From Trypanosoma brucei (taxonomy: Eukaryota), in NCBI GenBank assembly GCA_000002445.1, contig CM000207.1, forward strand, positions 608,001 through 672,000: a stretch of DNA of 64,000 nucleotides, in the 5' to 3' direction. The translations under genes and the position numbers were made by a program. The notes under the pieces are model-generated. The model had not been told where the DNA came from, did no database searches, and saw only the letters and a program-made list of their open reading frames with translations. Of the stretch, positions 25,251-54,741 are shown piece after piece (the stretch's first letter is position 1; the number at the start of each line of letters is the position of its first letter).

Positions 25251-25253
<3 letters not shown>

Positions 25254-25282
<29 letters not shown>
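25254..25282. repeat. (TA)n microsatellite
   Basis: aaaatatatatatatatatatatatatatatac, read directly from the sequence. Confidence 0.9.
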
Positions 25283-25286
<4 letters not shown>

Positions 25287-28293: not shown

Positions 28294-28304
28294 CCCCCCC
28301 CCCC
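28294..28304 (-). repeat. G11 homopolymer on the minus strand (C11 on plus) at the minus-cluster edge of the strand-switch region
   Basis: caaccccccccccctcag, followed by G7 at 28328-28334. Read directly. Confidence 0.85.
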
Positions 28305-31300: not shown

Positions 31301-33599
31301 CGACACTGACCATTTCAAAGGTGATAGAAAGAGAAAACTGTGAGAACATATGGCGACAGGTGAAACGGTGAAAGTCCAAGCGGGGGTTTAGCCACGCCAT
31401 CCTCTTTATTGTTTGTTCCAAATCACCTCAAACAGCGAGCTAAATGAGGGGTGCGCAACAAATTCGCAAACATGGTGCATCAAGCTCACCTACTCTCTAC
31501 ACCGCCTTCTTTCCAACAGATCAAGTGGCAGCAGCTCAATTGGACGAATCTCCCCGACTCCAACAAGTATAGTTTAACAAAGGTTAAACAAAAAGCACAA
31601 TCCCAAAACTCTGCTGTTACTAGCCGCAACTGCTTTCTTTCCCAACCTACGTCCCCTACTGCGGAACTAAATCACCAAAATAGTTTCCTCCCTAACACCC
31701 AAGCGATAAGGAGCAAGGCTGCTAATGAATATGCGCCACGGAATGAGCGCCGCACCTACGAATAGGACACGTAAACACATTGGTAGACTCAAAAAAAAAA
31801 AAAGAGGCATATATAGTCCAGAAAATCCTTTCGAGCTACTGCGACCCTGACAAGCTCCGACAACCACGTCAAAGCAAAACTATATTCCTCTCGTCACCTA
31901 TTGACAATCCGAGGTTTGTAGCGTTCTGTTCACATCAGGAAAAAGAATATGGTCCTGCACTATTCAAAACGAAAAAGAGAAGGCTACTACCGACAAGGCT
32001 CCTCAGATTGAGAACTCCTTTCTCGACAGTGTGGGATTCAATAGCCCGAGCACTGCGTGCACCCCGACTCGGAGCGGCAGGGAAACGATCATGCAGGGAA
32101 TCGAGCACCGCCACATTTTCCCTCATTTTTTTGGAAGAATGCGGTGGGGTCACGACGGCAAGTAACCAACATGATCACAGGCGTGACGGGTGGAGAGAGC
32201 GGGGAAGATGCGGTTGAGTTGGCTCAGCTGATCATCGTTAGGGGTGTAGTTTGCAAGAGGGGAGTGGAATGTTACCTGAAATGGGAAGCCGTCGATTAAA
32301 CATTCAGTGAAGTCATAAGAAAAGCCGGACCTTCTGGACTACCCTATGCATAATGAGTTGGATGCTGCCAAGTGTTAGTGTAACAAAGTGGGGAAGACTT
32401 ACCGCAAAAGGAAAGCTTGGTGTGGATCGTTTTCGGGGTTGCAAGCACGGCCCTATCCCTCGAGTGGGCTGAGGGAAGATGCGCCGTGCGAAGAGAAAAA
32501 TAGAGGTGTCCGTTGCCATCCACCACCAAACCTGAACAGAAGGTTCTGCTGAATTGGATATGCCGAGCGGTGGAGAAACTTTCATATTTGATAAGGCAGA
32601 AAGACGGCTGAGTTACGCAGAAGGATCGGTAAGCTGCCACGTGACTTCCGAGGGGGGAGGGCTGCAATGAAGATTGTGCTTGAAAGGCCTCTAAGAGAAA
32701 CGGCATACAAGGCAAAGGGTGGGGTCCGGGTTAGAGACGTTCAACAAATTCGAACCGTCCCTCTTTTCTTTAAAGGCGGAACCAACACGTATAAAAGGTT
32801 ACGTCCTTCGCCCTATATGGAGAAGGGATCGGTGCAGCTCGTTAGGAATATGCCCCTATAAGTGCATTATGTTTTCTATTGCTCTAATTTTTATTGAAAC
32901 TAATTACCCGGCTACGGGGGCGGGTCTACAACCGGAACACCCTCCGTGCGGCACTAATACCGTGATATAGTTGTCGATTCAAAAGGCATCAGCGGTGAAT
33001 ACTTCAATTTTAACGCAGCAGTTTGAGGGCCGTCACGCACGGTATCAACGCTTTCTCTCATACCCCTTCTGCTAGGAAAGATATGGAAGCGGCGCGGAGA
33101 CAAGAGAAATTTCCCGCTTGGTTTTTCTTCTGGCGCAACGAAACGGTTCGGATGATATCTAGGATGGCTGAGCAACTGCATCAACCGAATGAGAGACGCG
33201 GTTGGTGCAGAATAGAGCAAATAATGAGGAGTCGCCGCCCCCTACACACACACACACATAATGTGAAGTTTAGTCGGAACAGCTCATACCTCGCGTGGTG
33301 GATAAACGTTTGGCGCCCAGTGATACGCCCGGGCAGTGATGCGGTATCGTTCCAGCGATTAACGTGGGTTGCTCATGCGACGGGGAAAAAAATCTGTAGA
33401 AAGGGTTGGACAAGGAACGAGTTGGAAAAACGCCTCAGAACGCGATGGGAATGTCGGGGATTGTGCATATCCTTTGTATGCGCGTGACTGTCCAGGACGC
33501 CCAAACACCCGAGAGTGCGCGCCATCAAACACAGAGGGGCGCTGCTATCCGAAACGAGCGACACCCAATGCGTGCACGTGTGGTTGTGTGGGAGAGCGC

Positions 33600-33615
33600 G
33601 GGGGGGGGGGGGGGG
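33600..33615 (+). repeat. G16 homopolymer
   Basis: gcgcgggggggggggggggggagtgg, read directly. It lies about 770 bp upstream of the first plus-strand gene. Confidence 0.85.
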
Positions 33616-33795
33616 AGTGGTGGGCTCGATGGCTGAAAGATACGGCTAATACGATGGTGCCCGATGTCTGCGGTGTCTGAAAACGCGTTTTATAGCAGTC
33701 CAACCAGGGGTGTGTATGGCGCACAAGGATTGAGGAGGAGAGTCAGCAGTAGGAACGCAATCGCAGGTAATGGCAGGAGGGGGTGCGTGTGTGTT

Positions 33796-33808
33796 GGGGG
33801 GGGGGGGG
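33796..33808 (+). repeat. G13 homopolymer
   Basis: gtgttgggggggggggggcagtg, read directly. Confidence 0.85.
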
Positions 33809-34260
33809 CAGTGCGGTGGTGATGTATTGCCGAGGTCGGTGCATTTTATGCCGGTGCTGGCAGTTGTTAGTGAATAAGAACGCTGGGACATAGTTCTGTG
33901 GGCCTTATTCGGTAGGGTACAGTCTTTTTTTCTTGTTGTCATGCCTATGTGTGGGGAAGTGGGGATGCGGGTCAGCACCGTGGTTTATGTGACTCTTGTT
34001 GCTGTGCCCTCGCTCGTTGATGCATTTCACCATCAGCTTTACAGATGTGTGCGCTTCTTACGTTAATGGATGCTGACGTCGGCATTTTTTTTTTTGATGC
34101 TATTGATGGGTTTGGTAAAGTGTTACCTGGAGATTGTAGAAACTTGCGGGCGGTCAGGTGTAATTTTTTTAAATCGGTCCCTTCCATGTGAAATGACTAA
34201 GTGTTGTGTTCACTACTGGCAAGGTATGATTTCCTGGACTCAACTTTAACGTTTAGAATG

Positions 34261-34290
34261 GTTTGTCATTTTTTTCCTCGTTTTTTTGTA
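34261..34290 (+). promoter_or_regulatory. polypyrimidine tract; candidate trans-splicing signal upstream of the first plus-strand gene
   Basis: tttttttcctcgtttttttgtacaactgcc, with AG dinucleotides downstream before the ATG at 34371. Inferred from general trypanosomatid mRNA processing. Confidence 0.4.
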
Positions 34291-34370
34291 CAACTGCCTC
34301 TGATTATTGTTGTGAGTTTTTCTTCAATTATATTTTGTCCTACGCTTTGGGCACTTTCCGGCCTTAAGAT

Positions 34371-35522
34371 ATGACGGCAGTGGTGAATGAGTTCCTTAAG
34401 CGCGGTGTACGAGCGTTAGCAGCTCGCCAGGATTCCGTTCTTGTGATGGGTAACGAAGGAGGTGACATGGACACCGTGATTGGCTCTATATTTCTGGCGA
34501 TGTACCTGGAAAAGCGTGACGTATTTGGTGTTGGTAGTTACGTTCCTGTACTAAACTTCGAAAAGGATGACTTACCACTGCGACAAGATGTGGTTAAGTT
34601 ACTGTCACGACACAACGTTTCTACAGACAGTATTTACTCAGTCAAGCAAAGTGGGAATGGTGTGGATTTCCTGGACCTACATCAAATGAAGCTTCCCATC
34701 GTTTTGTATGATCACAACAAGCTAAGTCCTGAGCAGGTTTATTTGGGAGAAAGGATCGTGGGTGTGGTCGACCATCACGAAGATGAGCAACTATACGTGG
34801 ATCAGACCAAATGCCTCCGAAGGATTTGCAAGACGGGTTCGGCTTGCACCCTTGTTGCAGAACTTTTCAACGAGGCGGGGTTGGAGGTTCCGTGCCCTGA
34901 GCTCCTCTTAGCCCCAATTGTAGTAGATACTGTAAACTTTGAACCGTCGCAAAAGAGGGTAACTGAACGAGACATTTTGGCCTCCAGGCTGCTGGTTGGG
35001 CGGGACGATTGCGGCGACTACCTGACGGGCATGTTTAAAGAACTAATGGCGTGGAAAAATGATATCCACTGCCTCACTGTTCCTCAGCACCTACGGCGGG
35101 ACTATAAAAACTTTGAATTTCCCTTTATTAGTGCTGAAAACAAGATATTGCGAGTTGGAATAAGCAGTATTTCGTGTCGTTCTGACGAATTACTATCCGT
35201 CCATGGTGTGAGTAGTGTGTCATCAAATTGCATTGAATTCATCAAACAGAGGTCAATCGACATGCTTCTCTTGACCTTCGCTGGTGAAAGAACTCCAGGG
35301 AGTTACTGTCGTCAGTTAGGTGTTGTTGCGAAGGATGAGGGACTCGCGGCTCTGCAAGCCTATTGTAAGAAATCACCCAGCGGGCTCGACTTTACTCTTC
35401 TGGAGGATGTAACAGTTAATGAGTGGGCCTTTTCAATTTACGAGCTGAGCGACCCTTCCGTGTCTCGGAAAAAGTTGGTTCCATCGCTGACTAGTTTTTT
35501 GTCAGTGTGGAACAATTTGTAA
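34371..35522 (+). CDS. DHH-family phosphoesterase (exopolyphosphatase/prune-like; DHH plus DHHA2)
   Basis: True ATG. Motifs present are GNEGGDMDT (motif I DxD), LYDHN (motif II), VVDHHEDEQ (DHH motif III) and a C-terminal DHHA2-like region. 383 aa. Confidence 0.75.
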   Translation: MTAVVNEFLKRGVRALAARQDSVLVMGNEGGDMDTVIGSIFLAMYLEKRDVFGVGSYVPVLNFEKDDLPLRQDVVKLLSRHNVSTDSIYSVKQSGNGVDFLDLHQMKLPIVLYDHNKLSPEQVYLGERIVGVVDHHEDEQLYVDQTKCLRRICKTGSACTLVAELFNEAGLEVPCPELLLAPIVVDTVNFEPSQKRVTERDILASRLLVGRDDCGDYLTGMFKELMAWKNDIHCLTVPQHLRRDYKNFEFPFISAENKILRVGISSISCRSDELLSVHGVSSVSSNCIEFIKQRSIDMLLLTFAGERTPGSYCRQLGVVAKDEGLAALQAYCKKSPSGLDFTLLEDVTVNEWAFSIYELSDPSVSRKKLVPSLTSFLSVWNNL

Positions 35523-43271: not shown

Positions 43272-45125
43272 GTTCGAAACGATAGACAATGCGTATAGAT
43301 TTGTATATGAACAGGGGCTTTCCCTCTCGTCGTATCCACGACTGCCTCCAATGTACCCGGTAAGGGAACACAATTTTTGGTTATTTCACTGTTGTGGAGC
43401 GGCGCCATTTAGTTCGAAAATGTTCTCCCCCCCTGAATAAAATGCATGCATGTGTTAGCTGTAGTACCTCTCTCGTTATATTTTGGAATTTACAAGCGCA
43501 GACTTACGACCACCACCCGGAGCTTCCGTTTGCTATCATTCTGCGATGTGCATGCAACAACGGGCTTGCGATGCGTCACGTGTTGATATTGTCTCAACGG
43601 CTCAACTCTCTGGGTCCCTTTTTTCCACCACTGCAGCAAGTAGTTTTATGTCCTTGATTAACAGGAATCATGGGGCCACACCCTCTTTCCCACTCCCGCA
43701 CCGTTGAGTCGTTTCTGCAAGCTTGTTACGAACACTCTGTAGACAAACAAAGGGTGGTATGTAAACGTATATATGTACCCCGGGAGCGCGTGCTCGTCGA
43801 GATTCGGTGACGGATGGAGGTATCGCAGCTAACCAGTGGCGTTGTGTTCCCTTAGCGGGGGGCAAAGTAAAACATCACCGCGAGAGGTGGTTGGACTCGA
43901 GGTAGCTGGGGAGGCGCGGCGCTGGAAAAAAAAGAGATCGTAGTTTGAAGGAGGGGGTGCAGTGGACACGGCAGGTTCGGCGAGAGAGTTGGGTCCCTTA
44001 TTCCGTGTGGAAGAAAGGGAAGACTCTCAAATTGTTGTCACTACCTCCGTAATTATGCATCGGGACATTGCTGGGTTCACTAACACCGTCATTTTCCTCG
44101 GGCCAGGCTCAAAGAAAAGGGGGGGGTCGGAGATACGGTTGACGATAGCACTTGGCGGCAATTGTTTTGCAGGTTGCACAGCTAGTCAGCTTGGGTCCTG
44201 ACGTGATGTGGAAGTGTGTCCCTTTTGTCTGCCACCGGCGTGAGGTCTCAACGTGACCTCGGCAGCCGTAACCGTAGAAGTGGGCGAATCGGGTGGAAGT
44301 TCCGAGTACTTTTGTCGTTTCGCGGGTTCACTACAAGGGACAGGATTCGACGTCCGCGGGTTCGCTTCTCGTCGTGTCCTGCTGTTTTGCTCAAACGATC
44401 TTTTTCCTACGGGTTCACAAGGTTGGCTGTTGCCACTCCGTAGCTACCAGGAACGTCTGTTGCGTTAATGAAACTTCTATGCACCTTTGCGATGCAGAAG
44501 CTGAGGTGAATTGGCTTTGGATCTGGTTACGATCGTAACCCACCAAGGTGCCCGGTTGTACGTCGGCTGATTGCGCATCTGCGTCCCCGTCATTTACCTA
44601 GAGTTACTGTGTTACGTGAAAAAAAGAGAGCTGTAGTTTGTGCCCCTGCTGCGCGATGAATGAGGGAGCTTCCCGGATGGAGAAAGTATCGAGTGCAGCG
44701 CCAGTTGGAGGGGAGGGAAAACCTCATGATTTTGTTCATCCATTGAGAATACTTGTGCCGTAATAAATGCTCACGTTTTTTCGCCCCTCACTACGGAGTT
44801 TTTCATACTTCACTGCTGTTGATGTCCTTTGTCCGACTGTTTGTTGTTCTCGGCACCCATATTACGCGCGGTGGTGTCTATACTGTAACTGAGCCATGCA
44901 GAGGTGCAATTCATCACCTTGCAACTGGCTAATGTCCTCACCTTATCCACCCCGTCATCTCCCGTAGCCTTTGTTTTGCTCGTTCACCTGGACAAGGGCC
45001 GGCGGCTTCCTCTTAAAGTGAAACAAGTTGTAAAAAAAAAAAGTGATTGTATAACTCTTTGAAACTCAACTTTCTCTTTTGGCTGTGAAAGAAGGTCGTG
45101 CGCAGTGTTCTTTCAAACTTTAACC

Positions 45126-48100
45126 ATGGCCACATCTCTTGTGCAGTTGTATTGCTACGACCTCAGCGGAGGGATGGCGGAGTCCATGAGCCTCATGTTG
45201 ATTGGGCGCCATTTGGAAGCAATATGGCACACTGGAATTGTTGTGTATGGAAAGGAGTACTATTTTGACGGCGGGGTTGGCATTGTTCACTCCTCACCCG
45301 GTGGATCTCACTTTGGCACGCCAAAACGGGTAGAAACACTCGGTACAACAACGAAAGGCGAAGGCGAGTTTCTTGAATGGGTTAAGCAGCGAAGGCTTGA
45401 TACATTTGGCCCAACACACTACAATCTCCTTAACCGAAATTGTAACCACTTCACGCAAGCGGCAGCGCAGTTTCTCGTAGAGCGTGACATTCCTAGTGAA
45501 ATCCGCGATATGATTCCCACTGTGCTGGATACTCCCCTTGGCCGCATGCTTAAACCCATGCTGGAAATGGCCACCAGAGGCTTGGAAGCATCCGCAAAGA
45601 CATCACAACTTTCTACTTCACCGCGGAAGAAAGTATCAAACACCACTGAAACGCCCACTGTGAGTGATTCCTCTACCTCCCTCGACGTTGCAACTGGCCT
45701 GAACTCGGAGAAATCTCATCTCTCAGTGGAGGAGCATGAAGAAGTAATGCTTGTCCGTGCGATGCTGCAGAGTAATGAATTGCTCTCGTCAGGGACGCGG
45801 GAAGGCTTTAACACGACGATGGGAGCACTTATCCTGCTTCGGATGGTCATAACAAATATCCTGAGGAATCCAACTCAACTCAAGTACAGGACGCTTTCTA
45901 CTCAAGATAAGGAGTATAAGTCGAAAATAGCACCTCTGGAAGAGTTTGGTGCAGCCGATATACTGCGTCTCTGTGGGTTCCGTCTGTTGCAGCACCCGAC
46001 GTTGAATCAAGCTGTGTGGTTCCTGAGTGATGCGGACGGCAGTGAAGATGTTCTGGCCATAATGGTGACCCACATCACCGAGTTGATTGAGTTGGTGGAA
46101 AGTGAGTATCAATCAGAGTTTTGCGCAGTAGAGGGAGATCCAAATATAGGGACTTTCCATAAAGAAAAATACCCAGTTCCCCCCCTTACGTCAAACGCGA
46201 GTGATCCAGGGGACAGGGCAATGGAGGTCATAATGCACGACGCTGTGAAACCTATCTCTTCGCTTGAAGACTTGATGAATTGGTCCCCTACATCACCTGG
46301 AGCAATTACCCCAGCAGCGCCGTGTCGCCGCCGCGTGCAGGCCAGTGTGGAAGATGGTCCGAGGCTTTTAATTTGCCATGACATGAAGGGTGGTTATCTT
46401 CCAACTGACTACGAGCACTTCGCTGTCTGTAATAGACTGATGAAGGGTGCATCAGCTCTCGTCCCGTCGGTGGTGAATTGTAGCTATACGGTGAGTTACT
46501 GGCATCATGTGGACTACTTTGTTTACTTTTCGCACAACTTCGTTACGGTTCCCCCAAAGGAGTGGATCAGCTACGCCCACCGCGAGGGGGTTCCAGCCCT
46601 TGGAACGTTTATTACCGAAGGCGAAAGCTTAACTCTTCGCAAGATTCTACATGATGCCCAAAGTTCGGCGTCCACCATTAGGAAGTTGGTGGATTTATGT
46701 GATGCACACAACTTTGATGGATACCTTATGAATATCGAAACAAATTTAGATGAAACCCTTGCAAAGCGCTTGATAACGTTCGTGGCTACGTTAAAGAAAT
46801 CCCTCAACAAATCGCGACCGCCTAACTCTGGGGAGCGCTTTGTATTCTGGTACGATGCTGTCACTGTGGAGGGAATCGTTTCGTATCAGAACGGTCTAAC
46901 GTCCAAGAATAAGCCCTTTTTTGATGTCTGCAACGGCTTGTTCACAAACTATGGCTGGAGACCGTACAGTCTCCCTTTATCCACTGCGATTGCGGGGCAA
47001 AGAAATCGCGATGTGTTTGTTGGTGTTGACATATTTGGCCGTGGTGTCTACGGAGGCGGAGGATACGATAGCCATAAAGCTGCAGACTGTGCATCTGGTG
47101 CAAAGCTTTCCATTGCCATTTTCGCGCCTGGTTGGACTTCTGAATGCGTAGGAAATGGCTGTCGCGAAAATTTTCAGCGTAACGACGCGCACATGTGGAG
47201 TAAAATGCAGGATATATGGACTACCAAGTATCTTGAGTTGGACACTTTGCCGGTATGGACGTGCTTCCTTGACGAAGTTGGAACACAATTCTTCGTGAAT
47301 GGAGCTCCCGTTTTGGGTTGCGTTTCCAATCAAAATAGCCTTGGAAGCGGTGTAAAGTGCAGTAATGATGACACTGATTTTTTTTTCCCTGAGTGGTGCC
47401 AAATTTCACAGACACACATAAAGCCTTGTTACAAGCTGGTGCGCGGTGGGGCGGAGGGGGATCCATGGTGTGTGCTGCCGTTCGAAGTGGTGGGTAAAGA
47501 TGGGTGCCACACCAATAAAGATGGACAGACTGTGCCCCTCGATTGGTCGACAAAACAGGTGTGGATGGGTAACCGTAGCATGAGCTTCGCCGCTCCGCCA
47601 AACGCTACCGTTCCACTTATGCGATGGAAGGTACGTCTTGAAGTCGGAGCAGCTGACGGTGAGAAGACGTCCGACGCGCTGGCGTTCCTTGACATTGCCT
47701 GGTTGTGTAACGCCGTAGATGCGCAAGCGCACTCCGTGCGCTGCGTGTGTGTCGAGGGTGTAAATGGCTCTTCCACGACACGGGTCGTGTTTGACGAGCA
47801 GCTTGCATCCCCAGAGAGAATAATTGTCGTAGCAACTGTGGGAAATTGGCAGATTGTTCGTTACGTAATTCCGGACAACGTTACATGGACGCACGTCACT
47901 TGTTTGTCGATACTAAACCCCTCTGAGAATGAATCACTTGTTTGCACTGTGGGTGGCGTTGCCCTGACTGAGCCGACATACGATAATTCCACCAGTGTGT
48001 TGCTTTTGGGGGATGCACAAATCTTGCCCTCAACTTCGTATACGGTGGACAAAACATCAGACCCAACCACATGCGTAGTCACACTTGACGTGCCGAATGA

Positions 48101-48281
48101 ACTGAGAAAAAAATCAAACAAGGTCATTCTGTTCGCGAAAATTGGGTTTCCGGGTGGAAAACTTCTGAGTGCGTACTTGGGAACGCATGAGATATCGAAG
48201 CAAATTCTGTTACCGTTGAATATACCGTCTGATGCTTTTGTTTACGAAATGTTCTTCTATGGATCAGCTTCTGGAAACTAA
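45126..48281 (+). CDS. three-domain protein: N-terminal PPPDE/DeSI papain-fold peptidase, central PUB (p97-binding) domain, C-terminal GH85 endo-beta-N-acetylglucosaminidase (ENGase)
   Basis: The first ATG is at 45126; the track start at 45105 is GTG. PPPDE: catalytic His context WHTGIVVYGKEYYFDGG and catalytic Cys in YNLLNRNCNHFTQ. PUB: NPTQLKYRTLSTQDKEYKSKIAPLEEFGAADILRLCGF. GH85: LICHDMKGGY and the catalytic N-x-E in DGYLMNIETN (compare human ENGase DGWLINIEN). Confidence 0.8.
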   Translation: MATSLVQLYCYDLSGGMAESMSLMLIGRHLEAIWHTGIVVYGKEYYFDGGVGIVHSSPGGSHFGTPKRVETLGTTTKGEGEFLEWVKQRRLDTFGPTHYNLLNRNCNHFTQAAAQFLVERDIPSEIRDMIPTVLDTPLGRMLKPMLEMATRGLEASAKTSQLSTSPRKKVSNTTETPTVSDSSTSLDVATGLNSEKSHLSVEEHEEVMLVRAMLQSNELLSSGTREGFNTTMGALILLRMVITNILRNPTQLKYRTLSTQDKEYKSKIAPLEEFGAADILRLCGFRLLQHPTLNQAVWFLSDADGSEDVLAIMVTHITELIELVESEYQSEFCAVEGDPNIGTFHKEKYPVPPLTSNASDPGDRAMEVIMHDAVKPISSLEDLMNWSPTSPGAITPAAPCRRRVQASVEDGPRLLICHDMKGGYLPTDYEHFAVCNRLMKGASALVPSVVNCSYTVSYWHHVDYFVYFSHNFVTVPPKEWISYAHREGVPALGTFITEGESLTLRKILHDAQSSASTIRKLVDLCDAHNFDGYLMNIETNLDETLAKRLITFVATLKKSLNKSRPPNSGERFVFWYDAVTVEGIVSYQNGLTSKNKPFFDVCNGLFTNYGWRPYSLPLSTAIAGQRNRDVFVGVDIFGRGVYGGGGYDSHKAADCASGAKLSIAIFAPGWTSECVGNGCRENFQRNDAHMWSKMQDIWTTKYLELDTLPVWTCFLDEVGTQFFVNGAPVLGCVSNQNSLGSGVKCSNDDTDFFFPEWCQISQTHIKPCYKLVRGGAEGDPWCVLPFEVVGKDGCHTNKDGQTVPLDWSTKQVWMGNRSMSFAAPPNATVPLMRWKVRLEVGAADGEKTSDALAFLDIAWLCNAVDAQAHSVRCVCVEGVNGSSTTRVVFDEQLASPERIIVVATVGNWQIVRYVIPDNVTWTHVTCLSILNPSENESLVCTVGGVALTEPTYDNSTSVLLLGDAQILPSTSYTVDKTSDPTTCVVTLDVPNELRKKSNKVILFAKIGFPGGKLLSAYLGTHEISKQILLPLNIPSDAFVYEMFFYGSASGN

Positions 48282-49530
48282 AAGGAGCTCGTCCGAAGGT
48301 GAAAAGTTGAAGATACAAATTGACTTGTGCAGGCACCCTTTTTAATTTCTGTTCCCCTCATTCCAATGCAGGTTTCTTTTTACCACATTAATTCTACTTA
48401 TCGCTTCTTTCTTGCTGCTTGAGAGCTTGTAACCTCACTGGGCGTCATGACACTGTTACCATGCAACGGAGGGTGGTAAAAATGTTTCACAGCCTTTTTC
48501 TTTCTGTGTCAACCTTTTTTCTCTGGTTTCTTCGGAGTAAACGTCAACGGCTTGTACGCAGAGAGTCACGACTTGCACGGGATTTCTTTTTGGCGTACTG
48601 TCCACGGAAAGTTTCGTGTGGTTGGAAGGGTGAGTAAACCGTGTCGTGGCGGTTTTGCTCCAACTCTTTTCTCTTCATTCTTAGTAGCTTGCTGCTTACT
48701 CCGCTGTATGTTGCGCATCCGCCGAACAGCCTTCAGCTTCCTTGGAGGGTTTGCGATCGCTGACTTCTACGTAAATTGCACGAATCTTGATGATATACAA
48801 AACGAACTGGGTGTGCAGGGCGTTGAGCGTGTTGCGAGTCCCAATTATTTTTCTTGGATATTCCGTTCCACACCTGTGAAACCGCAACAACCCGCATTTG
48901 GCTCGACGCTGCGTGAAGACGTCGAGTTGCTGTTCCAGAAGTCTCCCCTCTCCGGAGCGGCCCTGGTTTTCACAGCGGTGTCACTTGGAGGCATTTGGTC
49001 ATTGCTTGGTTCCTGCGCGGCTGTTGTGCTTGATGGGGATGAGGGTAGCGAGCGCTACGATGCTCTGAAGCGTTGGCTGAATGGATAGGCTCGCCGTTAG
49101 TGAAGACGGTGTACTCTGGTGCCTGTGTTTGTGGTGACAATTCGCTGTTTCTAAAGCTACGAAACGAACTGGCTTGTTTGGTGGGTGTGGTATCTGCTAT
49201 TGTTCTTTGTGAATACGTGTTTGTCAATTACAAAATTTGGGTTTGGTGGTAGCTATGGAGTGGTAAATTATAATGGCGGTATTAATGGCAGCAGTGAAGT
49301 TGAAAATAACCTTGATGCGTTCTATTCCCTTCGTGTTTTCCCCATTTATTTGACTACCTCGCTCCTTTAATCAACGCTTTGTGCAGAGAAGCCGCACAAC
49401 GGTCTTCTAGGAAGTTGAAGTGCCTCCGTGTGCATTAAACAGTGGAGCCGGTAGAGGGGAGTAATACCGGGAGCACCTGTAGTTCCATTTGTTGTTGGTA
49501 TCTGGGCGGGTGCTGTCTCCGTCCCTGTCT

Positions 49531-50487
49531 ATGGCAATCGTCGGGGACTCGTTAAATAAGAGGCGCAACTACACCGTCTGCGGTCTTGTTAGCAACCCGT
49601 TGTTCCAGAAGTGCGCGGAGGTCGCTCAGTATGTGGCAGAAGAGTACAGTGATGAATTTTATGTAGATATATTCCGTGAGATGCCTTGCGAGTTCTACAG
49701 TCGTAGAGAGCAGCTGTTAAACAGTAAGAAGATAGAGGACGGTGGAATGGAGGTCATCGTCCTTGTGGGCGCCGATGGGCACACCGGCCCCACCAACGGA
49801 GAGGGCGAGGCAATGTCCGGGGATGACTTCCTGAACATGATGCAGAAGGCAACTTGCTTTCGAGTTCTTAACATCCCACCCGAGAGACCTGACTCTTACG
49901 AAAATATGGCGCATCTTTCGTGGAAGAATTACCTTCGGGAGCGGGGGAACACTTACTGCTGGATGGAAATAAGCATTGGTGAGATGGTCCACGGGCGCGT
50001 TACGTTTGAACTTTACTCGCGCGTAGTGCCCCACACCTGCAGCAACTTCTGGCACCTCTGTAAGGGCGACCTGAGTCGGGATGCGGACGAGGGAGAAGAG
50101 CAGGTGCCAATACTAAGCTACAAAAATTCAACCTTCTTCCGCACTTTGCATGGAGCGTGGGTGATGGGCGGTGACATCAGTGGAGGGAATGGTCGGGGTG
50201 GATATTCCATTTACGGTCGTTACTTCCCGAATGAGTCTTATGCCATTCCCCACGATAGGGTTGGGGTGCTTGGAATGTGCAATGACGGCGGAGACACCAA
50301 CGCATCTTCTTTTTACATCACAATGAAGGCCATGCAATGGATGAACGGCCGCTACGTGGCGTTTGGCCGTGTGGTCGACGGCTTGGAAGTCGTACATGCT
50401 ATCCACGCAGTAGATGTAAAACACAATCAGTGTCCGAAAAAGGTGATAACCATAAGTGACTGCGGTGTGATTGACCTTACAGAGTGA
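49531..50487 (+). CDS. cyclophilin-type peptidyl-prolyl cis-trans isomerase with a ~160-aa N-terminal extension
   Basis: The cyclophilin domain includes GRVTFELYSRVVPHTCSNFWHLCKG, FFRTLHGAWVMGGDISGGNGRGGYSIYG, FYITMKAMQWMNGRYVAFGRVVDGLEVV and KHNQCPKKVITISDCG. The first ATG is at 49531; the track start at 49489 is TTG. Confidence 0.85.
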   Translation: MAIVGDSLNKRRNYTVCGLVSNPLFQKCAEVAQYVAEEYSDEFYVDIFREMPCEFYSRREQLLNSKKIEDGGMEVIVLVGADGHTGPTNGEGEAMSGDDFLNMMQKATCFRVLNIPPERPDSYENMAHLSWKNYLRERGNTYCWMEISIGEMVHGRVTFELYSRVVPHTCSNFWHLCKGDLSRDADEGEEQVPILSYKNSTFFRTLHGAWVMGGDISGGNGRGGYSIYGRYFPNESYAIPHDRVGVLGMCNDGGDTNASSFYITMKAMQWMNGRYVAFGRVVDGLEVVHAIHAVDVKHNQCPKKVITISDCGVIDLTE

Positions 50488-51204
50488 TTAGAGGTGCTTT
50501 AGAAACTGTAGACGGGGAAAGTGAGATAGGGAAAAGATGGGAGTGTTGTTATGCGGAGAATTTCTTTGACAGCCTTCGTCCTGACCCGGCTTGCCAAGCT
50601 TTTCATTTTCTCATCTAATGTGCATGTCTTGGAAATCGCTCTCGGTTGGCGGCCCGTCCTTTCTAAACTTCTTCTTTTCACGTGCTTCAACCCCCCCTTT
50701 CTGTCCCTTCCTGGCTTCATGCTCACACAGGGTCGACGGCCCTCTTGTACATAAAGCGTCACGGGTGGAACTAATGTGTTTCTTTCTTTGAGCAGGTTTG
50801 TCAACTGTTGCGTCCCCTCTGGGAGGTGGAAACTGCAGAAAGCCATCAGAAGGAGAAGGGACAATGGACGAGAGTGCGGGGGGGGGGGAGAAATAAAAGT
50901 GTGTATGCGCAATGAGGCGGATAGAAGGACTGAAAAGGGATCCATTGGGGAAGGGGGCATCGTTTACTGTTTCCACGGAGTGATGTAAACCTCACAAGAT
51001 ACTTTGGGTCTTGTGTGTGGGAGCGTATGTATAAATAACTCGATTGGTGGCACATTCAGCAGGTCCACTACTATTAATCGCAGGGTGATTTATCCTGTTC
51101 ACACAACGCGCCCCTTACTCTCGTTCCCTTGCCTACCAACCCCATCTTTTCGTTTTTTTGCGTGTGCACCGCACGCGCGGAAGTCCTTCTTTTGCATTAC
51201 CGGG

Positions 51205-53595
51205 ATGGGAAGGAAGGATGACGCCATTAAAAAGTTAATATCGCTTAATTTTAGTAAAAGCAAGGCAACAGAAGCACTTAAGGAGGCTAATGGAGACTTT
51301 GACGTTGCCCTGAGAATTTTGCAGAACAAAAAAGTGAAAGAACAACAGGTTCCGGTGAAATCATTGGCAGAAAAGCCAAAGTTGAGCGGTAATGATGACC
51401 GCGTGGGTGACGGTGGTGAGGTGAAGCAAAGGAAACACCCGTGTATAGTGCAATACAAAAAATGCCAATATGGAAAGTTCTGTCGACTTCGTGACTACCC
51501 GGGTGATGTCTGCATCAACTACTTCAATGGTACTTGCTTGTATGGAAACTTCTGCAAGAGACGACACTATGTTGATGGAGTAGACATACGGGCCGACCAA
51601 CGTCCGGAGACAAGTAGTGGAATAGTTAAGCACCAGTCGGGCACCATCCGTATATCCAGGTCATGTGGCAATGGGGTGTTTGTTGGGGATGTGATACAGT
51701 GTGTTGACGAGGAATCGTCTTCCCAGCTTGCCGGTGCAACTCCTGAGCCATGCCGCTTTAATCTCATCCAGGGCTCGGAACCTACGTATACGGATCCCAG
51801 AGCTCTAGATTGGCAGTCGCGTGCTACTTCCGTCATCGGTACCACCCCAACTCCATTCTTGGATGCAGTAAGGCAAAATGCGCAGAAACAGGCTTTCGAA
51901 GAGGTCGCACCAACCTCTCCCGTCCCACTTTCAGTAACTTCTAGGGCTATCTCAAGGAATAAACACCCCTGTATAGCGCAGCGCGGTTGCTGTAAATACG
52001 GAAAGAACTGCCTTCATGCAGACAGGGACGCAGACGTTTGCGTGTTCTTTCTGAACGGAAGATGTGCGAGGGAAGGTTCCTGCAAGTACCGACATGAAAG
52101 CGATGCGGAATATTTGAGACGTGTTCGACCTGATTTATGGGGTGGAGGCTGCGATGACGCTAGCCAAGGCGGCGAGACGGTACCACTAACCGCCGAGAAG
52201 GTGTTGAAGGATGTGACAAGAGCGCGGTGGTGTCAAGCTGATGATGGGGAGGTTAAGGATGGGGAAAGATACCAACAAACCGGTGTTTCCCTCTCGGATT
52301 TTCTTCCGACCGCGCGTGTGGACGACGCACCCGAGGGCGGTACCCAGCGGGGGGAGCACGATGAAGATTCGATGGCACCTGACCAAAGCGGGGACAATGA
52401 GTTTGCCTCGCTTCTGAGTTTGATTGATGCGTTCCCAAGCGCCGAACCATATTTGTTGCTGCACGCCCTTCGCTGCGCTGACGGTAATCCCCATTACGCC
52501 GCCGACGTCATAAACCGAGTGAGTAATATTGATTCCACTGAGGATATCGATCTTTGCTTCCTAGCAAGCCGCTTGGAAGACGAGGATGAGGAGAGAGAGG
52601 CCGCAATCCGGGACAAACACGAGTGGTTTCTCACACTCTGCACGCTGTTTCCAGGCGTAGACACACCGTCGATTCAAGCGGTGTTGGATCGATGTGGAGG
52701 GGAATACGGAGAGGCCTACGACATTTTGCTTTGCCAAAGTGGTTCAGTAACAGCGAAGGCTTATGGGACCGCCTGGAGCGGTAAAGTTAAGGGAAGCGAA
52801 GAGGCTCGCGTGGAGAAGTTGTGCGGCATGTACCCGGGACTTCCCAAGGACGTGGTACAGAATGCCTTCGGGACTGCTGATGGCAATTTTCTCGTGGCAA
52901 GCGGTATATTGAATGATATGACCAAAGATATGTTGGTGGCGGGAGACGTTGTTGCTGATAGCCACCCCTGTCCGGCTCGCGGAAAGGTTGTTGTTACGAC
53001 GAAGCGAACGTCCGAAGAAGATGAACCGAAGAAGGTGTCGTTCCAGTTTCCGGTGAGCAGCCCATCACGCGAGGAAGTGGAGGCGTTTTACAACAGTGTG
53101 AAGAACGAGGTACGAGAGCTTGGTGATTGGCGACGGGTGCGAGAGCAGGCGTATATCATCAACAGTTGTCGTATCCGCGTGCTCAAGCACGCTGCAGCGG
53201 CATACCGACGTGGTGACGGCGAAGCCGCCAAGACTCTTAGTCGTCATGGGAAAGAACTTGGTGCCCAGTATCAGCGTCTCAACCGCATTGCGATGGTCGC
53301 ACTGGAGCGGGAGCGTCTGTATAGTAGCCCAGTCGTCACGCTTGACCTCCATGGCTTCCACGTTGAGGAGGCGATCGAGGTAGTGCGACGTCGTGTGAAG
53401 TTGTGCCAGCAGAAAGGTGTGAGGAACCTGCAAATTGTCACTGGCAGTGGCAAGCACAGCCGTGGCGGGAACTCTGCCCTTCACTCCGCAGTGCTGAAGC
53501 AGCTTCAGGAGGATACGCAACTAGACGGCATCGTTAAAATCGGGTCAATAAAACCTGCTTTTTTTGACGTTCAAATTGCACCGCGGCGTAAGTAA
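51205..53595 (+). CDS. UBA/CUE, tandem CCCH zinc-finger and Smr-domain protein (Cue2/N4BP2-like; candidate no-go-decay mRNA endonuclease)
   Basis: The first ATG is at 51205; the track start at 51004 is TTG. The N-terminal UBA is LISLNFSKSKATEALKEANGDFDVALRIL. There are two pairs of CCCH fingers (HPCIVQYKKCQYGKFCRLRDY...CINYFNGTCLYGNFCKRRH and HPCIAQRGCCKYGKNCLHADRD...CVFFLNGRCAREGSCKYRH). CUE-like segments include AEPYLLLHALRCADGNPHYAADVI and LFPGVDTPSIQAVLDRCGGEYGEAYDIL. The C-terminal Smr has TLDLHGFHVEEAIEVV and IVTGSGKHSRGG. Confidence 0.75.
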   Translation: MGRKDDAIKKLISLNFSKSKATEALKEANGDFDVALRILQNKKVKEQQVPVKSLAEKPKLSGNDDRVGDGGEVKQRKHPCIVQYKKCQYGKFCRLRDYPGDVCINYFNGTCLYGNFCKRRHYVDGVDIRADQRPETSSGIVKHQSGTIRISRSCGNGVFVGDVIQCVDEESSSQLAGATPEPCRFNLIQGSEPTYTDPRALDWQSRATSVIGTTPTPFLDAVRQNAQKQAFEEVAPTSPVPLSVTSRAISRNKHPCIAQRGCCKYGKNCLHADRDADVCVFFLNGRCAREGSCKYRHESDAEYLRRVRPDLWGGGCDDASQGGETVPLTAEKVLKDVTRARWCQADDGEVKDGERYQQTGVSLSDFLPTARVDDAPEGGTQRGEHDEDSMAPDQSGDNEFASLLSLIDAFPSAEPYLLLHALRCADGNPHYAADVINRVSNIDSTEDIDLCFLASRLEDEDEEREAAIRDKHEWFLTLCTLFPGVDTPSIQAVLDRCGGEYGEAYDILLCQSGSVTAKAYGTAWSGKVKGSEEARVEKLCGMYPGLPKDVVQNAFGTADGNFLVASGILNDMTKDMLVAGDVVADSHPCPARGKVVVTTKRTSEEDEPKKVSFQFPVSSPSREEVEAFYNSVKNEVRELGDWRRVREQAYIINSCRIRVLKHAAAAYRRGDGEAAKTLSRHGKELGAQYQRLNRIAMVALERERLYSSPVVTLDLHGFHVEEAIEVVRRRVKLCQQKGVRNLQIVTGSGKHSRGGNSALHSAVLKQLQEDTQLDGIVKIGSIKPAFFDVQIAPRRK

Positions 53596-53949: not shown

Positions 53950-54741
53950 ATGTCCACCAGCAGCCGCGGTATTTTGATTGCCGGGTTGACGAACCGTGCT
54001 CGAACACAGATGGCGGAGGGTATTCTCCGTCGACTGACAGCGGGAACCATATTTATAAAGAGCGGCGGTGTGCATCACGAGTCAACCATACATCCGCTTG
54101 CAGTTAAAGTCATGAAAGATATCGGCATTGACATTAGCAAACAGTCTGTGACGTCACTCGAAGCCGCACGCAGGCAACAGAACACGTACGACGTATACAT
54201 TAGCATTGACTGCAGTTACGAGCGGCGAACACTGGATAAATCGCAACCACCACGTGCGGAGGTTCGGCGTCGGGAGAGTTTCACCGTAGAATATGGAGAC
54301 GACGGTAGTGGTCCCAGAGGCGGCGATGACCCGGTGCGTTACGACCCGCTACTAGTTCCGCGCACCCCATCTCACTGGAGTGTTGGTGTTGACGCAACCG
54401 ACGTGCGGCGTCGCTGGCAGATATGGAGTCCCCGGGACCCCTCCATATTTCATGAAACCTCCACGCGGAAGTTTCAGGATCACTTATACGAAGGGGAGCC
54501 ACTCTTCATGCAGTTACGACAATGCCCTTGGAGAACTCAGGCGAAAGTTTCTGAGCGATGGGAGATGGATGAAGTGGCAATACGATATCCTGTGGAGCGT
54601 CATAGCGCACATGAGCTTCGTTTTGTGCAGGCGCGCGAGCAGCTGTTGCAGAGGTCTTTCGATCTGCTCACAAAACTTGAGAAGCATTATGGTGAAAGGC
54701 TCCTGCTTGACAGAGCGCTACTGGAGGAATTTATTTCATAG
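53950..54741 (+). CDS. ArsC/LMW-PTP-like protein with substituted catalytic cysteines (predicted pseudo-phosphatase/pseudo-arsenate-reductase), plus a ~170-aa unique C-terminal region
   Basis: True ATG. The N-terminal 90 aa align to B. subtilis ArsC (LMW-PTP fold): ILIAGLTNRARTQMAEG versus ILFLCTGNSCRSQMAEG, and SGGVHHESTIHPLAVKVMKDIGIDISKQ versus [27 protein letters not shown]. The P-loop Cys-X5-Arg nucleophile Cys is Gly and the second Cys is Ala; the Arg is retained. Confidence 0.55.
   Translation: MSTSSRGILIAGLTNRARTQMAEGILRRLTAGTIFIKSGGVHHESTIHPLAVKVMKDIGIDISKQSVTSLEAARRQQNTYDVYISIDCSYERRTLDKSQPPRAEVRRRESFTVEYGDDGSGPRGGDDPVRYDPLLVPRTPSHWSVGVDATDVRRRWQIWSPRDPSIFHETSTRKFQDHLYEGEPLFMQLRQCPWRTQAKVSERWEMDEVAIRYPVERHSAHELRFVQAREQLLQRSFDLLTKLEKHYGERLLLDRALLEEFIS

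What the first reader, a model, noticed from the sequence alone, without database searches (positions are those of the whole stretch)
51205..53595. UBA + 2x tandem CCCH + CUE + Smr protein: candidate Cue2/N4BP2-type endonuclease with added RNA-binding zinc fingers
The C-terminal Smr domain (LDLHG...TGSGKHS) preceded by ubiquitin-binding UBA/CUE modules is the architecture of the yeast no-go-decay endonuclease Cue2 and human N4BP2. Here two pairs of C-x8-C-x5-C-x3-H fingers are inserted as well. CCCH fingers are the dominant RNA-binding fold in kinetoplastids. This could link ubiquitin-marked stalled ribosomes to mRNA cleavage in an organism that regulates almost entirely post-transcriptionally.
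Basis: partly seen in the sequence, partly recalled or inferred. Interest (0 to 1): 0.55.

Follow-up and report, generated by a model that had tools for sequence, protein, structure and literature searches.

The report
Known trypanosome zinc-finger Smr endonuclease ZC3H27
The gene is real and intact, but it is the already catalogued Trypanosoma brucei protein ZC3H27, whose Leishmania counterpart (LdCSBP) was shown in 2011 to be a ubiquitin-modulated RNA-cutting enzyme; only its proposed role at stalled ribosomes remains untested.

Summary
Window 51205-53595 (+) is a 796-codon ORF that is 100% identical to T. b. brucei TREU927 XP_803648.1. Published cloning primers and the listed molecular weight identify it as Tb927.9.3460 = ZC3H27.

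**Domain calls**
- DUF1771 (the "N-ext" helical extension) and Smr score above Pfam's cut-offs. LDLHG and G-x-G-x-HS are invariant in 14 kinetoplastid orthologues.
- UBA, CUE and CCCH are sub-threshold in this sequence alone. Family-wide HMM hits, an AlphaFold model and profile-profile comparison support them.
- There are three CUE-like bundles, not one.
- The zinc fingers are not two pairs of C-x8-C-x5-C-x3-H. They are two "HC6H" modules, each a non-canonical H-x-C-x6-C-x5-C knuckle followed by one C-x7-C-x5-C-x3-H finger.
- The arginine matching Cue2 R402 / N4BP2 R1731 is Ser748 here. That position varies across the wider family.

**What is already known**
- Kramer 2010 equates ZC3H27 with Leishmania LdCSBP.
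- LdCSBP binds CAUAGAAG, is ubiquitinated, and has Smr RNA-endonuclease activity modulated by ubiquitination.
- CCCH + DUF1771 + Smr proteins also occur in fungi and an oomycete.

A no-go-decay role is plausible but untested. The architecture is already known, so interest is modest.

The parts
51205..53595 (+). Complete coding sequence of T. brucei ZC3H27 (Tb927.9.3460; 796 aa plus stop)
   Evidence: ORF and translation. 100% identical to XP_803648.1 of T. b. brucei TREU927. The published Tb927.9.3460 primers match window 51201-51218 and 53578-53595 exactly. Calculated MW is 87.94 kDa against 87.96 kDa in Kramer 2010 Table S1.
51110..51183 (+). Pyrimidine-rich tract followed by the first AG (51182-51183), 22 nt upstream of the ATG; candidate trans-splicing signal (inferred only)
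   Evidence: Read directly from the sequence. All orthologues start at the equivalent Met, so the upstream TTG at 51004 listed by the ORF finder is not the start.
51205..51345 (+). N-terminal UBA domain (aa 1-47)
   Evidence: Pfam UBA-type hits at E 9e-5 to 2e-3, below cut-off. UBA found in 9 of 14 orthologues. AlphaFold three-helix bundle, pLDDT 78-91. Foldseek matches Mud1 UBA (target TM 0.91, rmsd 0.5) and Ede1 UBA (target TM 0.88).
51436..51567 (+). Zinc module 1, 'HC6H' (aa 78-121): H-x-C-x6-C-x5-C knuckle plus a C-x7-C-x5-C-x3-H finger
   Evidence: Spacing computed. H78, C80, C87, C93, C103, C111, C117 and H121 are invariant in 14 orthologues. Weak zf-CCCH hits. pLDDT about 80. The motif was named in PMC6648352.
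51964..52095 (+). Zinc module 2, 'HC6H' (aa 254-297), same spacing as module 1
   Evidence: H254, C256, C263, C269, C279, C287, C293 and H297 are invariant. zf-CCCH_10 E 3.7e-5 and zf_CCCH_4 E 1.2e-4 on the excised segment. Aligns to a tandem pair of CPSF30 (CPSF4) zinc fingers, chain residues 128-167 (6fuw_C, E 1.4e-4). pLDDT 75-86.
52387..52518 (+). CUE-like three-helix bundle 1 (aa 395-438), with an A-F-P motif
   Evidence: AlphaFold helices 395-409, 415-424 and 429-438, pLDDT 82-87. hhalign against CUE 2 gives 96% probability, E 3.5e-9. P411, P415, L419, L422, R423 and G427 are invariant.
52621..52740 (+). CUE domain 2 (aa 473-512), with L-F-P and a C-terminal LL motif
   Evidence: Pfam CUE at aa 480-510, E 0.011 here. 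CUE is found in 12 of 14 orthologues, best E 4e-15. F482, P483 and L508 are invariant.
52801..52935 (+). CUE-like three-helix bundle 3 (aa 533-577), with M-Y-P here and M-F-P in most orthologues
   Evidence: AlphaFold helices 533-542, 548-557 and 562-585, pLDDT 77-84. hhalign against CUE 2 gives 95% probability, E 2.5e-8. M542 and L569 are invariant; P544 and N570 are nearly invariant. No Pfam hit on its own.
53068..53322 (+). DUF1771 / 'N-ext' helical extension of the Smr domain (aa 622-706)
   Evidence: Pfam DUF1771 at aa 643-704, E 1.3e-13, 51.5 bits against a cut-off of 28.7; found in 14 of 14 orthologues. Long helices 622-639, 642-669 and 672-706. The NONU-1 paper describes DUF1771 as the N-ext of Smr.
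53335..53577 (+). Smr domain (aa 711-791), beta-alpha-beta-alpha-beta-beta fold
   Evidence: Pfam Smr E 1.8e-10, above cut-off; found in 14 of 14 orthologues. N4BP2 Smr match (2vkc E 1.1e-7). AlphaFold secondary structure. The top Foldseek hits are all Smr domains: N4BP2, MutS2, YdaL and SmrB.
53341..53355 (+). LDLHG motif (aa 713-717) holding the DxH catalytic pair D714/H716
   Evidence: Invariant in all 14 orthologues. Aligns to N4BP2 D1692/H1694. DxH is required in Cue2 and NONU-1.
53440..53460 (+). TGSGKHS motif (aa 746-752); Ser748 occupies the position of Cue2 R402 / N4BP2 R1731
   Evidence: Alignment to N4BP2 TGRGNHS, with residue numbering. G747, G749, H751 and S752 are invariant and position 748 varies.

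Best explanation
The ORF is T. brucei ZC3H27 (Tb927.9.3460), the orthologue of Leishmania donovani LdCSBP. It is best read as a modular, ubiquitin-controlled endoribonuclease.

- **Cutting:** the C-terminal Smr domain, with its DUF1771/N-ext helices, cleaves RNA using the invariant Asp714-x-His716 pair.
- **RNA binding:** two HC6H zinc modules bind RNA. In Leishmania the target is the CAUAGAAG 'cycling' octamer of S-phase mRNAs.
- **Ubiquitin sensing:** one UBA and three CUE-like bundles read ubiquitin. This could be ubiquitin attached to the protein itself, which modulates the nuclease in Leishmania. It could also be ubiquitin on other proteins such as stalled ribosomes, as for Cue2/NONU-1.

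**Shown here:** gene identity, domain anatomy, motif conservation and orthology.

**Taken from the literature for the orthologue:** octamer binding, ubiquitination and RNA cleavage.

**Inferred:** that the T. brucei protein does the same, and what its in vivo substrates are.
For: **Identity**
- 100% identical to XP_803648.1.
- Published primers match exactly.
- Molecular weight matches.

**Orthology to Leishmania**
- 31-33% identity over 98-99% of the length to Leishmania and Leptomonas proteins with the same domain order.
- Kramer 2010 lists ZC3H27 = Tb09.160.2090 = LmjF01.0210 and calls it CSBP, citing the LdCSBP paper.

**Domains**
- DUF1771 and Smr score above Pfam cut-offs.
- Family-wide counts out of 14: CUE 12, UBA 9, zf_CCCH_4 10.
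- AlphaFold domain models, Foldseek hits to Smr, UBA and CUE structures, and hhalign of the three CUE repeats.

**Motifs**
- LDLHG and G-x-G-x-HS are invariant.

**Biochemistry of the orthologue**
- It binds CAUAGAAG and is ubiquitinated.
- The Smr domain alone cuts both DNA and RNA, while the full-length protein shows sequence-specific RNA cleavage.
- DxH is shared with LdCSBP and SOT1, and is required in NONU-1 and Cue2.

**Zinc module**
- The HC6H module is shared with the other octamer-binding proteins CSBPA/B (ZC3H39/40), and with a Diplonema 'cycling sequence binding protein'.
Against: - No experiment on the T. brucei protein itself was found.
- It was not selected in either arm of the genome-wide tethering screen.
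- Only 1 RNA-array slide was positive (signal ratios 1.12 and 1.27). The authors say negative array results cannot be interpreted.
- RNAi gave no growth defect, and gave a growth advantage at day 6 in bloodstream forms.
- The Arg equivalent to Cue2 R402 is Ser748.
- In Crithidia, mRNA cycling persisted without CSBPA/B, so the biological meaning of octamer binding is unsettled.
- The LdCSBP papers themselves are not held in the library. Their content is taken from reviews that cite them.
Confidence: 0.62

Rival explanations
1. It is a Cue2/NONU-1-type no-go/non-stop decay endonuclease. The UBA and CUE modules dock on ubiquitinated collided ribosomes, the Smr domain cuts the mRNA at the ribosome, and the zinc fingers only help to hold the mRNA. 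It overlaps with the best explanation and differs mainly in the in vivo substrate.
For: - One UBA and three CUE-like modules upstream of N-ext-Smr mirror the four ubiquitin-binding modules plus Smr of Cue2, and the two CUE domains plus N-ext-Smr of NONU-1.
- DxH is invariant.
- The closest solved relative by sequence is the N4BP2 Smr domain.
- Foldseek also finds Smr domains that sit on collided disomes: MutS2 (8qpp) and SmrB (7qgr).
- A mild or absent growth phenotype is typical of cue2 and nonu-1 mutants.
Against: - No trypanosome data on no-go decay or on this protein at ribosomes were found.
- The residue matching Cue2 R402 is Ser.
- The orthologue was reported to cleave in a sequence-specific way without ribosomes.
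- Whether T. brucei has other N-ext-Smr proteins could not be checked here.
Confidence: 0.3
2. It is an RNA-binding and ubiquitin-binding adaptor whose Smr domain is catalytically weak or inactive in T. brucei, acting as a scaffold or ribosome-binding module rather than a nuclease.
For: - Ser748 replaces the Arg implicated in RNA cleavage in Cue2 and SOT1.
- Tethering did not select it as a repressor.
- B. subtilis MutS2 uses its Smr domain on collided ribosomes without cutting mRNA (reference title seen).
Against: - DxH and G-x-G-x-HS are invariant across kinetoplastids, which indicates selection on the active-site region.
- The L. donovani protein has Gln at the same position, yet LdCSBP is reported to be active.
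- The position varies (T, A, S, K, Q, E) in many DUF1771-Smr proteins across eukaryotes.
- Cue2 R402A only weakens activity.
Confidence: 0.08
3. It is a DNA-nicking Smr protein acting in repair or recombination, as first proposed for N4BP2/B3BP and the MutS2 Smr domains.
For: - Smr domains of N4BP2, MutS2 and YdaL nick DNA in vitro, and the isolated LdCSBP Smr domain also cut DNA.
- One automated annotation of an orthologue reads 'DNA-nicking Smr family endonuclease'.
Against: - Full-length LdCSBP showed only RNA cleavage.
- The protein carries CCCH-type RNA-binding modules and no DNA-repair domain.
- The eukaryotic N-ext-Smr clade is now tied to mRNA surveillance.
Confidence: 0.04

Closest known systems
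Leishmania donovani LdCSBP (mRNA cycling sequence binding protein; LmjF01.0210 orthogroup = ZC3H27)
   Same: - Colinear over the full length: UBA, two zinc modules, CUE, DUF1771, Smr.
- Named as the same orthogroup in Kramer 2010.
- Same LDLHG and G-x-G-x-HS motifs.
   Different: - Only 31-33% identical.
- Linker lengths differ.
- Residue 748 is Ser in T. brucei and Gln in L. donovani.
- None of the Leishmania biochemistry (octamer binding, ubiquitination, RNA cleavage) has been repeated for T. brucei.
Yeast Cue2 / C. elegans NONU-1 / human N4BP2 (no-go and non-stop decay Smr endonucleases)
   Same: - C-terminal Smr domain with a DxH motif.
- The N-ext (DUF1771) extension, as in NONU-1 and N4BP2.
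- Several CUE/UBA modules upstream.
- The best PDB match is the N4BP2 Smr domain.
   Different: - No P-loop polynucleotide kinase domain.
- Carries two HC6H zinc modules.
- The Arg of TG-R-G (Cue2 R402, N4BP2 R1731) is Ser.
- A ribosome-collision role has not been tested.
Fungal and oomycete tandem-CCCH + DUF1771 + Smr proteins (for example Fennellomyces KAI8139680.1, Calcarisporiella XP_069249573.1, Bremia lactucae XP_067816839.1)
   Same: - Tandem zinc fingers followed by DUF1771-Smr, with a CUE hit at about the Pfam cut-off in Fennellomyces (21.0 against 21.1 bits).
- G-(T/S)-G-H-HS lacks the Arg, as here.
   Different: - Their fingers are two canonical adjacent CCCH units in a single tandem.
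- The kinetoplastid protein has two copies of the HC6H variant, an N-terminal UBA and three CUE-like bundles.
- They are uncharacterised.
Kinetoplastid CSBPA/CSBPB = ZC3H39/ZC3H40
   Same: - They share the HC6H zinc module.
- They bind the same CAUAGAAG octamer in Crithidia.
- They also have a link to ubiquitin, through a U-box.
   Different: - No Smr, CUE or UBA domain.
- They are U-box proteins that form a hetero-oligomer and regulate respiratome mRNAs in T. brucei.
Plant PPR-SMR proteins (for example SOT1)
   Same: The same design principle: a sequence-reading RNA-binding array fused to an Smr endoribonuclease.
   Different: - PPR repeats instead of zinc fingers.
- Located in organelles.
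- No ubiquitin-binding modules.

Membership tests
Smr domain, eukaryotic subfamily 2 (Pfam PF01713) | Profile HMM match above the curated cut-off | tested here: met
   41.3 bits against a cut-off of 25.7, E 1.8e-10, aa 713-772. Found in 14 of 14 orthologues.
Smr domain, eukaryotic subfamily 2 (Pfam PF01713) | LDxH motif and central TGxG motif | tested here: met
   LDLHG at 713-717 and TGSG at 746-749. The motif definitions come from PMC3858433.
Smr domain, eukaryotic subfamily 2 (Pfam PF01713) | IF3-C-like beta-alpha-beta-alpha-beta-beta fold | tested here: met
   AlphaFold elements E711-714, H720-737, E741-745, H758-769, E777-782 and E786-791. Foldseek target TM-scores are 0.66 to the N4BP2 Smr domain and 0.79 to the MutS2 Smr domain. 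pLDDT is only 50-82 in this region.
Cue2 / NONU-1 / N4BP2 surveillance endonucleases | Smr at the C-terminus with the N-ext (DUF1771) extension | tested here: met
   DUF1771 at aa 643-704, E 1.3e-13, directly before Smr. N-ext is described.
Cue2 / NONU-1 / N4BP2 surveillance endonucleases | CUE/UBA-fold ubiquitin-binding modules upstream of Smr | tested here: met
   One UBA and three CUE-like bundles. Actual ubiquitin binding cannot be tested here.
Cue2 / NONU-1 / N4BP2 surveillance endonucleases | Catalytic DxH pair (Cue2 D348/H350; N4BP2 D1692/H1694) | tested here: met
   D714/H716 are invariant.
Cue2 / NONU-1 / N4BP2 surveillance endonucleases | Arg of TG-R-G (Cue2 R402; N4BP2 R1731) | tested here: not met
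   Ser748 aligns to N4BP2 R1731. The position varies in kinetoplastids and in many DUF1771-Smr proteins. Cue2 R402K is neutral and R402A is a partial loss, so this is a soft criterion.
Cue2 / NONU-1 / N4BP2 surveillance endonucleases | P-loop polynucleotide kinase domain (N4BP2 and NONU-1 only) | tested here: not met
   No kinase family appears in the Pfam scan up to E = 10. Cue2 also lacks it.
Cue2 / NONU-1 / N4BP2 surveillance endonucleases | Cleaves mRNA at collided, ubiquitinated ribosomes | not testable with these tools
   No trypanosome study was found.
ZC3H27 / LdCSBP orthogroup (kinetoplastids) | Identity with the catalogued gene Tb927.9.3460 / Tb09.160.2090 | tested here: met
   100% identical to XP_803648.1. 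Primers match exactly. MW 87.94 against 87.96 kDa.
ZC3H27 / LdCSBP orthogroup (kinetoplastids) | Full-length colinear homology to the Leishmania protein, with two zinc modules, UBA, CUE and Smr | tested here: met
   31-33% identity over 98-99% coverage. Two HC6H modules are present in full-length-matching family members from Trypanosoma, Leishmania, Angomonas, Phytomonas Hart1 and Neobodo.
ZC3H27 / LdCSBP orthogroup (kinetoplastids) | Binds CAUAGAAG RNA; is ubiquitinated; ubiquitination modulates Smr RNase activity | not testable with these tools
   Known only for L. donovani, through reviews.
Canonical tandem CCCH (TTP-type C-x8-C-x5-C-x3-H pairs) | Two adjacent C-x8-C-x5-C-x3-H fingers | tested here: not met
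   No C-x8 finger is present. Each module is H-x-C-x6-C-x5-C followed by C-x7-C-x5-C-x3-H. Pfam zf-CCCH scores below cut-off.

The most novel reading that the evidence does not exclude
ZC3H27 is the kinetoplastid ribosome-collision (no-go/non-stop decay) endonuclease, and its HC6H fingers bias it towards CAUAGAA-containing S-phase mRNAs. If so, periodic or stress-dependent mRNA decay in trypanosomes would be carried out by translation-coupled, ubiquitin-gated endonucleolytic cleavage. That would merge sequence-specific decay and surveillance decay in one enzyme.
Probability: 0.15. Interest if true: 0.6.

Novelty: already known. Interest (0 to 1): 0.3.

Why it matters
Trypanosomes control gene expression almost entirely after transcription, and no no-go-decay endonuclease has been described for them in the literature searched. 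ZC3H27 is an obvious candidate because it has the Cue2/NONU-1 layout.

[quoted passage not shown] What it does provide is a specific, testable link between the older LdCSBP work and the newer Cue2/NONU-1 field. A D714A/H716A knock-in with stall reporters in T. brucei would settle it.

Tried and rejected
- **Short-query protein search.** A word-indexed search with only the C-terminal 157 aa returned nothing, not even the protein itself. I treat this as an index limitation. The exhaustive HMMER search with the full protein replaced it.
- **Exact-sequence contig look-up.** It found no record, although the protein equals XP_803648.1. No genomic context was obtained that way.
- **mRNA-bound proteome paper.** Lueong 2016 is not held, so that dataset was not checked.
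- **Upstream TTG start at 51004.** Rejected: all orthologues begin at the Met of 51205, and the published primers start there.
- **Antisense ORFs inside the gene** (51099-51458, 52186-52494, 53065-53520, minus strand). Treated as chance ORFs within a plus-strand polycistron.
- **Foldseek with the whole multi-domain model.** E-values were weak (best 7e-3) because of the 796-residue query. Only the identity of the top hits and their target TM-scores were used.
- **Catalytic death from the missing Arg.** Considered and rejected as unlikely, because the position varies across the family, including the L. donovani orthologue of the experimentally active LdCSBP.
- **Other Smr proteins in T. brucei.** I could not determine whether the genome encodes another N-ext-Smr protein, because no T. 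brucei proteome is available in these tools.


Full report
**1. What is there**

Window 51205-53595 (+) is one uninterrupted ORF of 796 codons plus a stop. The ORF finder extends it to a TTG at 51004. All 13 aligned orthologues begin at the Met encoded at 51205. A pyrimidine-rich tract (51110-51160) and an AG (51182-51183) lie just upstream, which fits a trans-splice acceptor (inference).

The gene sits in a plus-strand run of ORFs from about 34.4 kb to about 61.6 kb. Its neighbours are a cyclophilin ORF (49489-50487) and a low-molecular-weight phosphatase-like ORF (53950-54741). The short antisense ORFs inside it are taken as chance.

**2. Identity**

- The protein is 100% identical to XP_803648.1 / EAN76436.1 of T. 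brucei brucei TREU927, and 98% identical to the T. equiperdum copy annotated 'zinc finger protein family member'.
- Erben et al. 2014 (PMC4055773, Table S6) list cloning primers for 'Tb927.9.3460 ZC3H27'. Their gene-specific parts match the window exactly at 51201-51218 and 53578-53595.
- The calculated mass is 87.94 kDa. Kramer et al. 2010 (PMC2873481, Table S1) give 87.96 kDa for ZC3H27 = Tb09.160.2090, with LmjF01.0210 as the L. major orthologue.

The finding is therefore Tb927.9.3460 / ZC3H27.

**3. Domain anatomy**

*Pfam on the single sequence.* DUF1771 (aa 643-704, E 1.3e-13) and Smr (aa 713-772, E 1.8e-10) both score above the curated cut-offs. UBA-type (aa 6-41), CUE (aa 480-510) and CCCH-type hits are below cut-off.

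*Pfam across 14 orthologues.*

| Family | Members with a hit | Best E |
|---|---|---|
| DUF1771 | 14/14 | 1.3e-13 |
| Smr | 14/14 | 1.8e-10 |
| CUE | 12/14 | 4e-15 |
| zf_CCCH_4 | 10/14 | 1.1e-6 |
| UBA | 9/14 | 9.5e-6 |

*AlphaFold model (built on the 14-sequence alignment; mean pLDDT 60.9, with disordered linkers and confident domains).*
- Three-helix bundle at aa 2-47.
- Two compact zinc modules at aa 76-133 and 252-312.
- Three further three-helix bundles at aa 395-438, about 470-519 and 533-585.
- Long helices at aa 622-706.
- A beta-alpha-beta-alpha-beta-beta unit at aa 711-791.

*Foldseek against the PDB.* The top hits are Smr domains: N4BP2 2d9i, MutS2 2zqe, YdaL, and MutS2 and SmrB bound to collided disomes. 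UBA domains follow (Mud1 with target TM 0.91, Ede1 with 0.88), along with a CUE domain (SMARCAD1 CUE1, 0.77). E-values are weak because the query is long.

*Profile-profile comparison.* The three internal bundles are homologous to one another: CUE1-CUE2 at 96%, CUE2-CUE3 at 95% and CUE1-CUE3 at 74% probability. Each carries the (A/L/M)-(F/Y)-P motif typical of CUE domains. The N-terminal UBA is not detectably related to them.

The protein therefore has four UBA-fold modules, not two.

**4. Zinc fingers**

A direct pattern scan finds no C-x8-C-x5-C-x3-H. There are two canonical C-x7-C-x5-C-x3-H fingers (aa 103-121 and 279-297), as in Kramer's table. Each is preceded by H-x-C-x6-C-x5-C (aa 78-93 and 254-269), which lacks a His at C+4.

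The full pattern H-x-C-x6-C-x5-C-x9-C-x7-C-x5-C-x3-H occurs twice, and all eight Cys/His of each copy are invariant. This is the 'HC6H' motif that Trenaman et al. 2019 (PMC6648352) defined for ZC3H39/40 and noted in Tb927.9.3460.

The exhaustive HMMER search found many HC6H-only proteins. One is a Diplonema protein named 'cycling sequence binding protein' that has two copies. Module 2 aligns to a tandem pair of CPSF30 (CPSF4) zinc fingers (chain residues 128-167), with Asp273 opposite a CPSF30 histidine in its C-x3-H motif. That eight ligands bind two zinc ions per module is an inference.

**5. Smr active site**

The alignment to human N4BP2 places LDLHG (713-717) on N4BP2 LDLHG, and TGSGKHS (746-752) on TGRGNHS. 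D'Orazio et al. 2019 (PMC6598757) identify Cue2 D348, H350 and R402, equivalent to N4BP2 D1692, H1694 and R1731, as the relevant residues. R402A is only a partial loss and R402K is neutral.

Counting from D1692 places R1731 at the R of TG-R-G. The T. brucei residue there is Ser748. D714 and H716 are invariant in the family, as are G747, G749, H751 and S752. Position 748 is S, R, C, Q, V or E, and Gln in L. donovani. Among more distant DUF1771-Smr proteins the same position is R, K, T, A, S, Q, E or M.

That residue is evidently not essential to the family.

**6. What is already known**

- Kramer 2010 states that 'CSBP (ZC3H27)' has UBA and CUE domains, and that the Leishmania protein is mono- and poly-ubiquitinated.
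- Kramer & Carrington 2011 (PMC3070815) describe LdCSBP as binding the CAUAGAAG octamer, with two CCCH, UBA and CUE domains, and as being ubiquitinated.
- Liu et al. 2013 (PMC3858433) summarise Bhandari et al. 2011 (FEBS Lett 585:809). The LdCSBP Smr domain alone cuts DNA and RNA, and the full-length protein shows sequence-specific RNA cleavage. The title of that paper says ubiquitination modulates the activity.
- The NONU-1 preprint cites LdCSBP as one of two characterised endoribonucleases sharing the DxH motif, and describes DUF1771 as an N-terminal extension of Smr.
- CAUAGAN is the most conserved 3'-UTR motif in trypanosomatids in one computational survey.

**7. T. brucei functional data**

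In Erben 2014 Table S7, sheet 3, the row for Tb927.9.3460 shows:
- RNAi code 'b6', meaning a growth advantage in bloodstream forms at day 6, with no growth-disadvantage code.
- No MKT1 association.
- Read ratios of 0 in both the PGKB and BLA tethering screens.
- One positive RNA-array slide.

The authors warn that negative array results cannot be interpreted. Full-text searches found no trypanosome work on Cue2-like no-go decay and no further mention of the gene.

**8. Distribution and relatives**

The exhaustive search gives 30 representatives below E 1e-30. Those sampled belong to Trypanosoma, Leishmania, Leptomonas, Porcisia, Angomonas, Phytomonas, Neobodo and Apiculatamorpha, so the family spans the kinetoplastids. 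A weaker match (E 2.5e-40) is from Novymonas.

Outside kinetoplastids, the hits are DUF1771-Smr proteins. Several combine a tandem CCCH pair with DUF1771-Smr, sometimes with CUE as well: Fennellomyces and Calcarisporiella (Mucoromycota) and Bremia lactucae (oomycete). Their motif is G-(T/S)-G-H-HS. Fusing CCCH to Smr is therefore not a kinetoplastid invention. The HC6H variant, its duplication and the UBA plus three-CUE array are the lineage-specific parts.

**9. Mechanism**

*Best supported (confidence about 0.6).* It is a ubiquitin-controlled endoribonuclease in which the HC6H modules bind RNA, the N-ext-Smr unit cuts, and the UBA and CUE modules sense ubiquitin. Anatomy and orthology are shown here. 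The activities are known only for the Leishmania orthologue. Transfer to T. brucei is inferred.

The architecture argues for it, but there is no experimental support.

*Minor rivals.* A non-catalytic adaptor role is disfavoured by the invariant DxH. A DNA-nicking role is disfavoured by the RNA-binding modules and by the behaviour of full-length LdCSBP.

**10. Verdict**

- The resemblance to Cue2/N4BP2 holds at the level of architecture and the DxH motif. The Arg criterion fails.
- The protein is a named gene whose orthologue's RNA-endonuclease activity and link to ubiquitin have been published since 2007-2011.
- Novelty: already known. Interest: modest (0.3). It rests only on the untested possibility that this is the trypanosome collision endonuclease.

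Noticed in passing
window 45105-48281 (+): A single 1058-aa ORF combines a PPPDE/Peptidase_C97 domain (aa 13-153), a PUB domain (aa 236-309) and a glycoside hydrolase family 85 endo-beta-N-acetylglucosaminidase domain (aa 460-706). This fusion of deglycosylation and ubiquitin-system modules looks unusual.
   Followed up: no
window ~24645-34371: This is a divergent strand-switch region. All long ORFs are on the minus strand up to 24645 and on the plus strand from 34371. GC drops to 0.41-0.43 at 24-28 kb, and the GC skew changes sign near 32 kb. It is probably a polycistron transcription start region.
   Followed up: no
proteins P0048, P0049, P0051, P0057 and others: The HC6H zinc module occurs, usually twice, in many short proteins without an Smr domain. 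One is a Diplonema papillatum protein named 'cycling sequence binding protein'. The module shared by CSBPA/B-type proteins and ZC3H27 may be the element that reads the CAUAGAAG octamer.
   Followed up: partly
proteins P0061, P0071, P0083: Mucoromycota fungi and the oomycete Bremia lactucae encode tandem-CCCH + DUF1771 + Smr proteins, with or without CUE, carrying G-(T/S)-G-H-HS. These are uncharacterised relatives with the same design outside the kinetoplastids.
   Followed up: partly
proteins P0017, P0018 against window 51205-53595: The T. b. gambiense DAL972 copy and one T. b. equiperdum copy are 789 aa rather than 796 aa, so there is a 7-residue length difference within the T. brucei group. 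Its position was not mapped.
   Followed up: no
window aa 140-164 of the ORF (about 51622-51696): AlphaFold predicts a small three-stranded beta sheet between the two zinc modules, at low confidence (pLDDT 50-58). No family match was found for it.
   Followed up: no
window 50877-50888: A run of about ten G residues lies in the intergenic region upstream of the gene.
   Followed up: no
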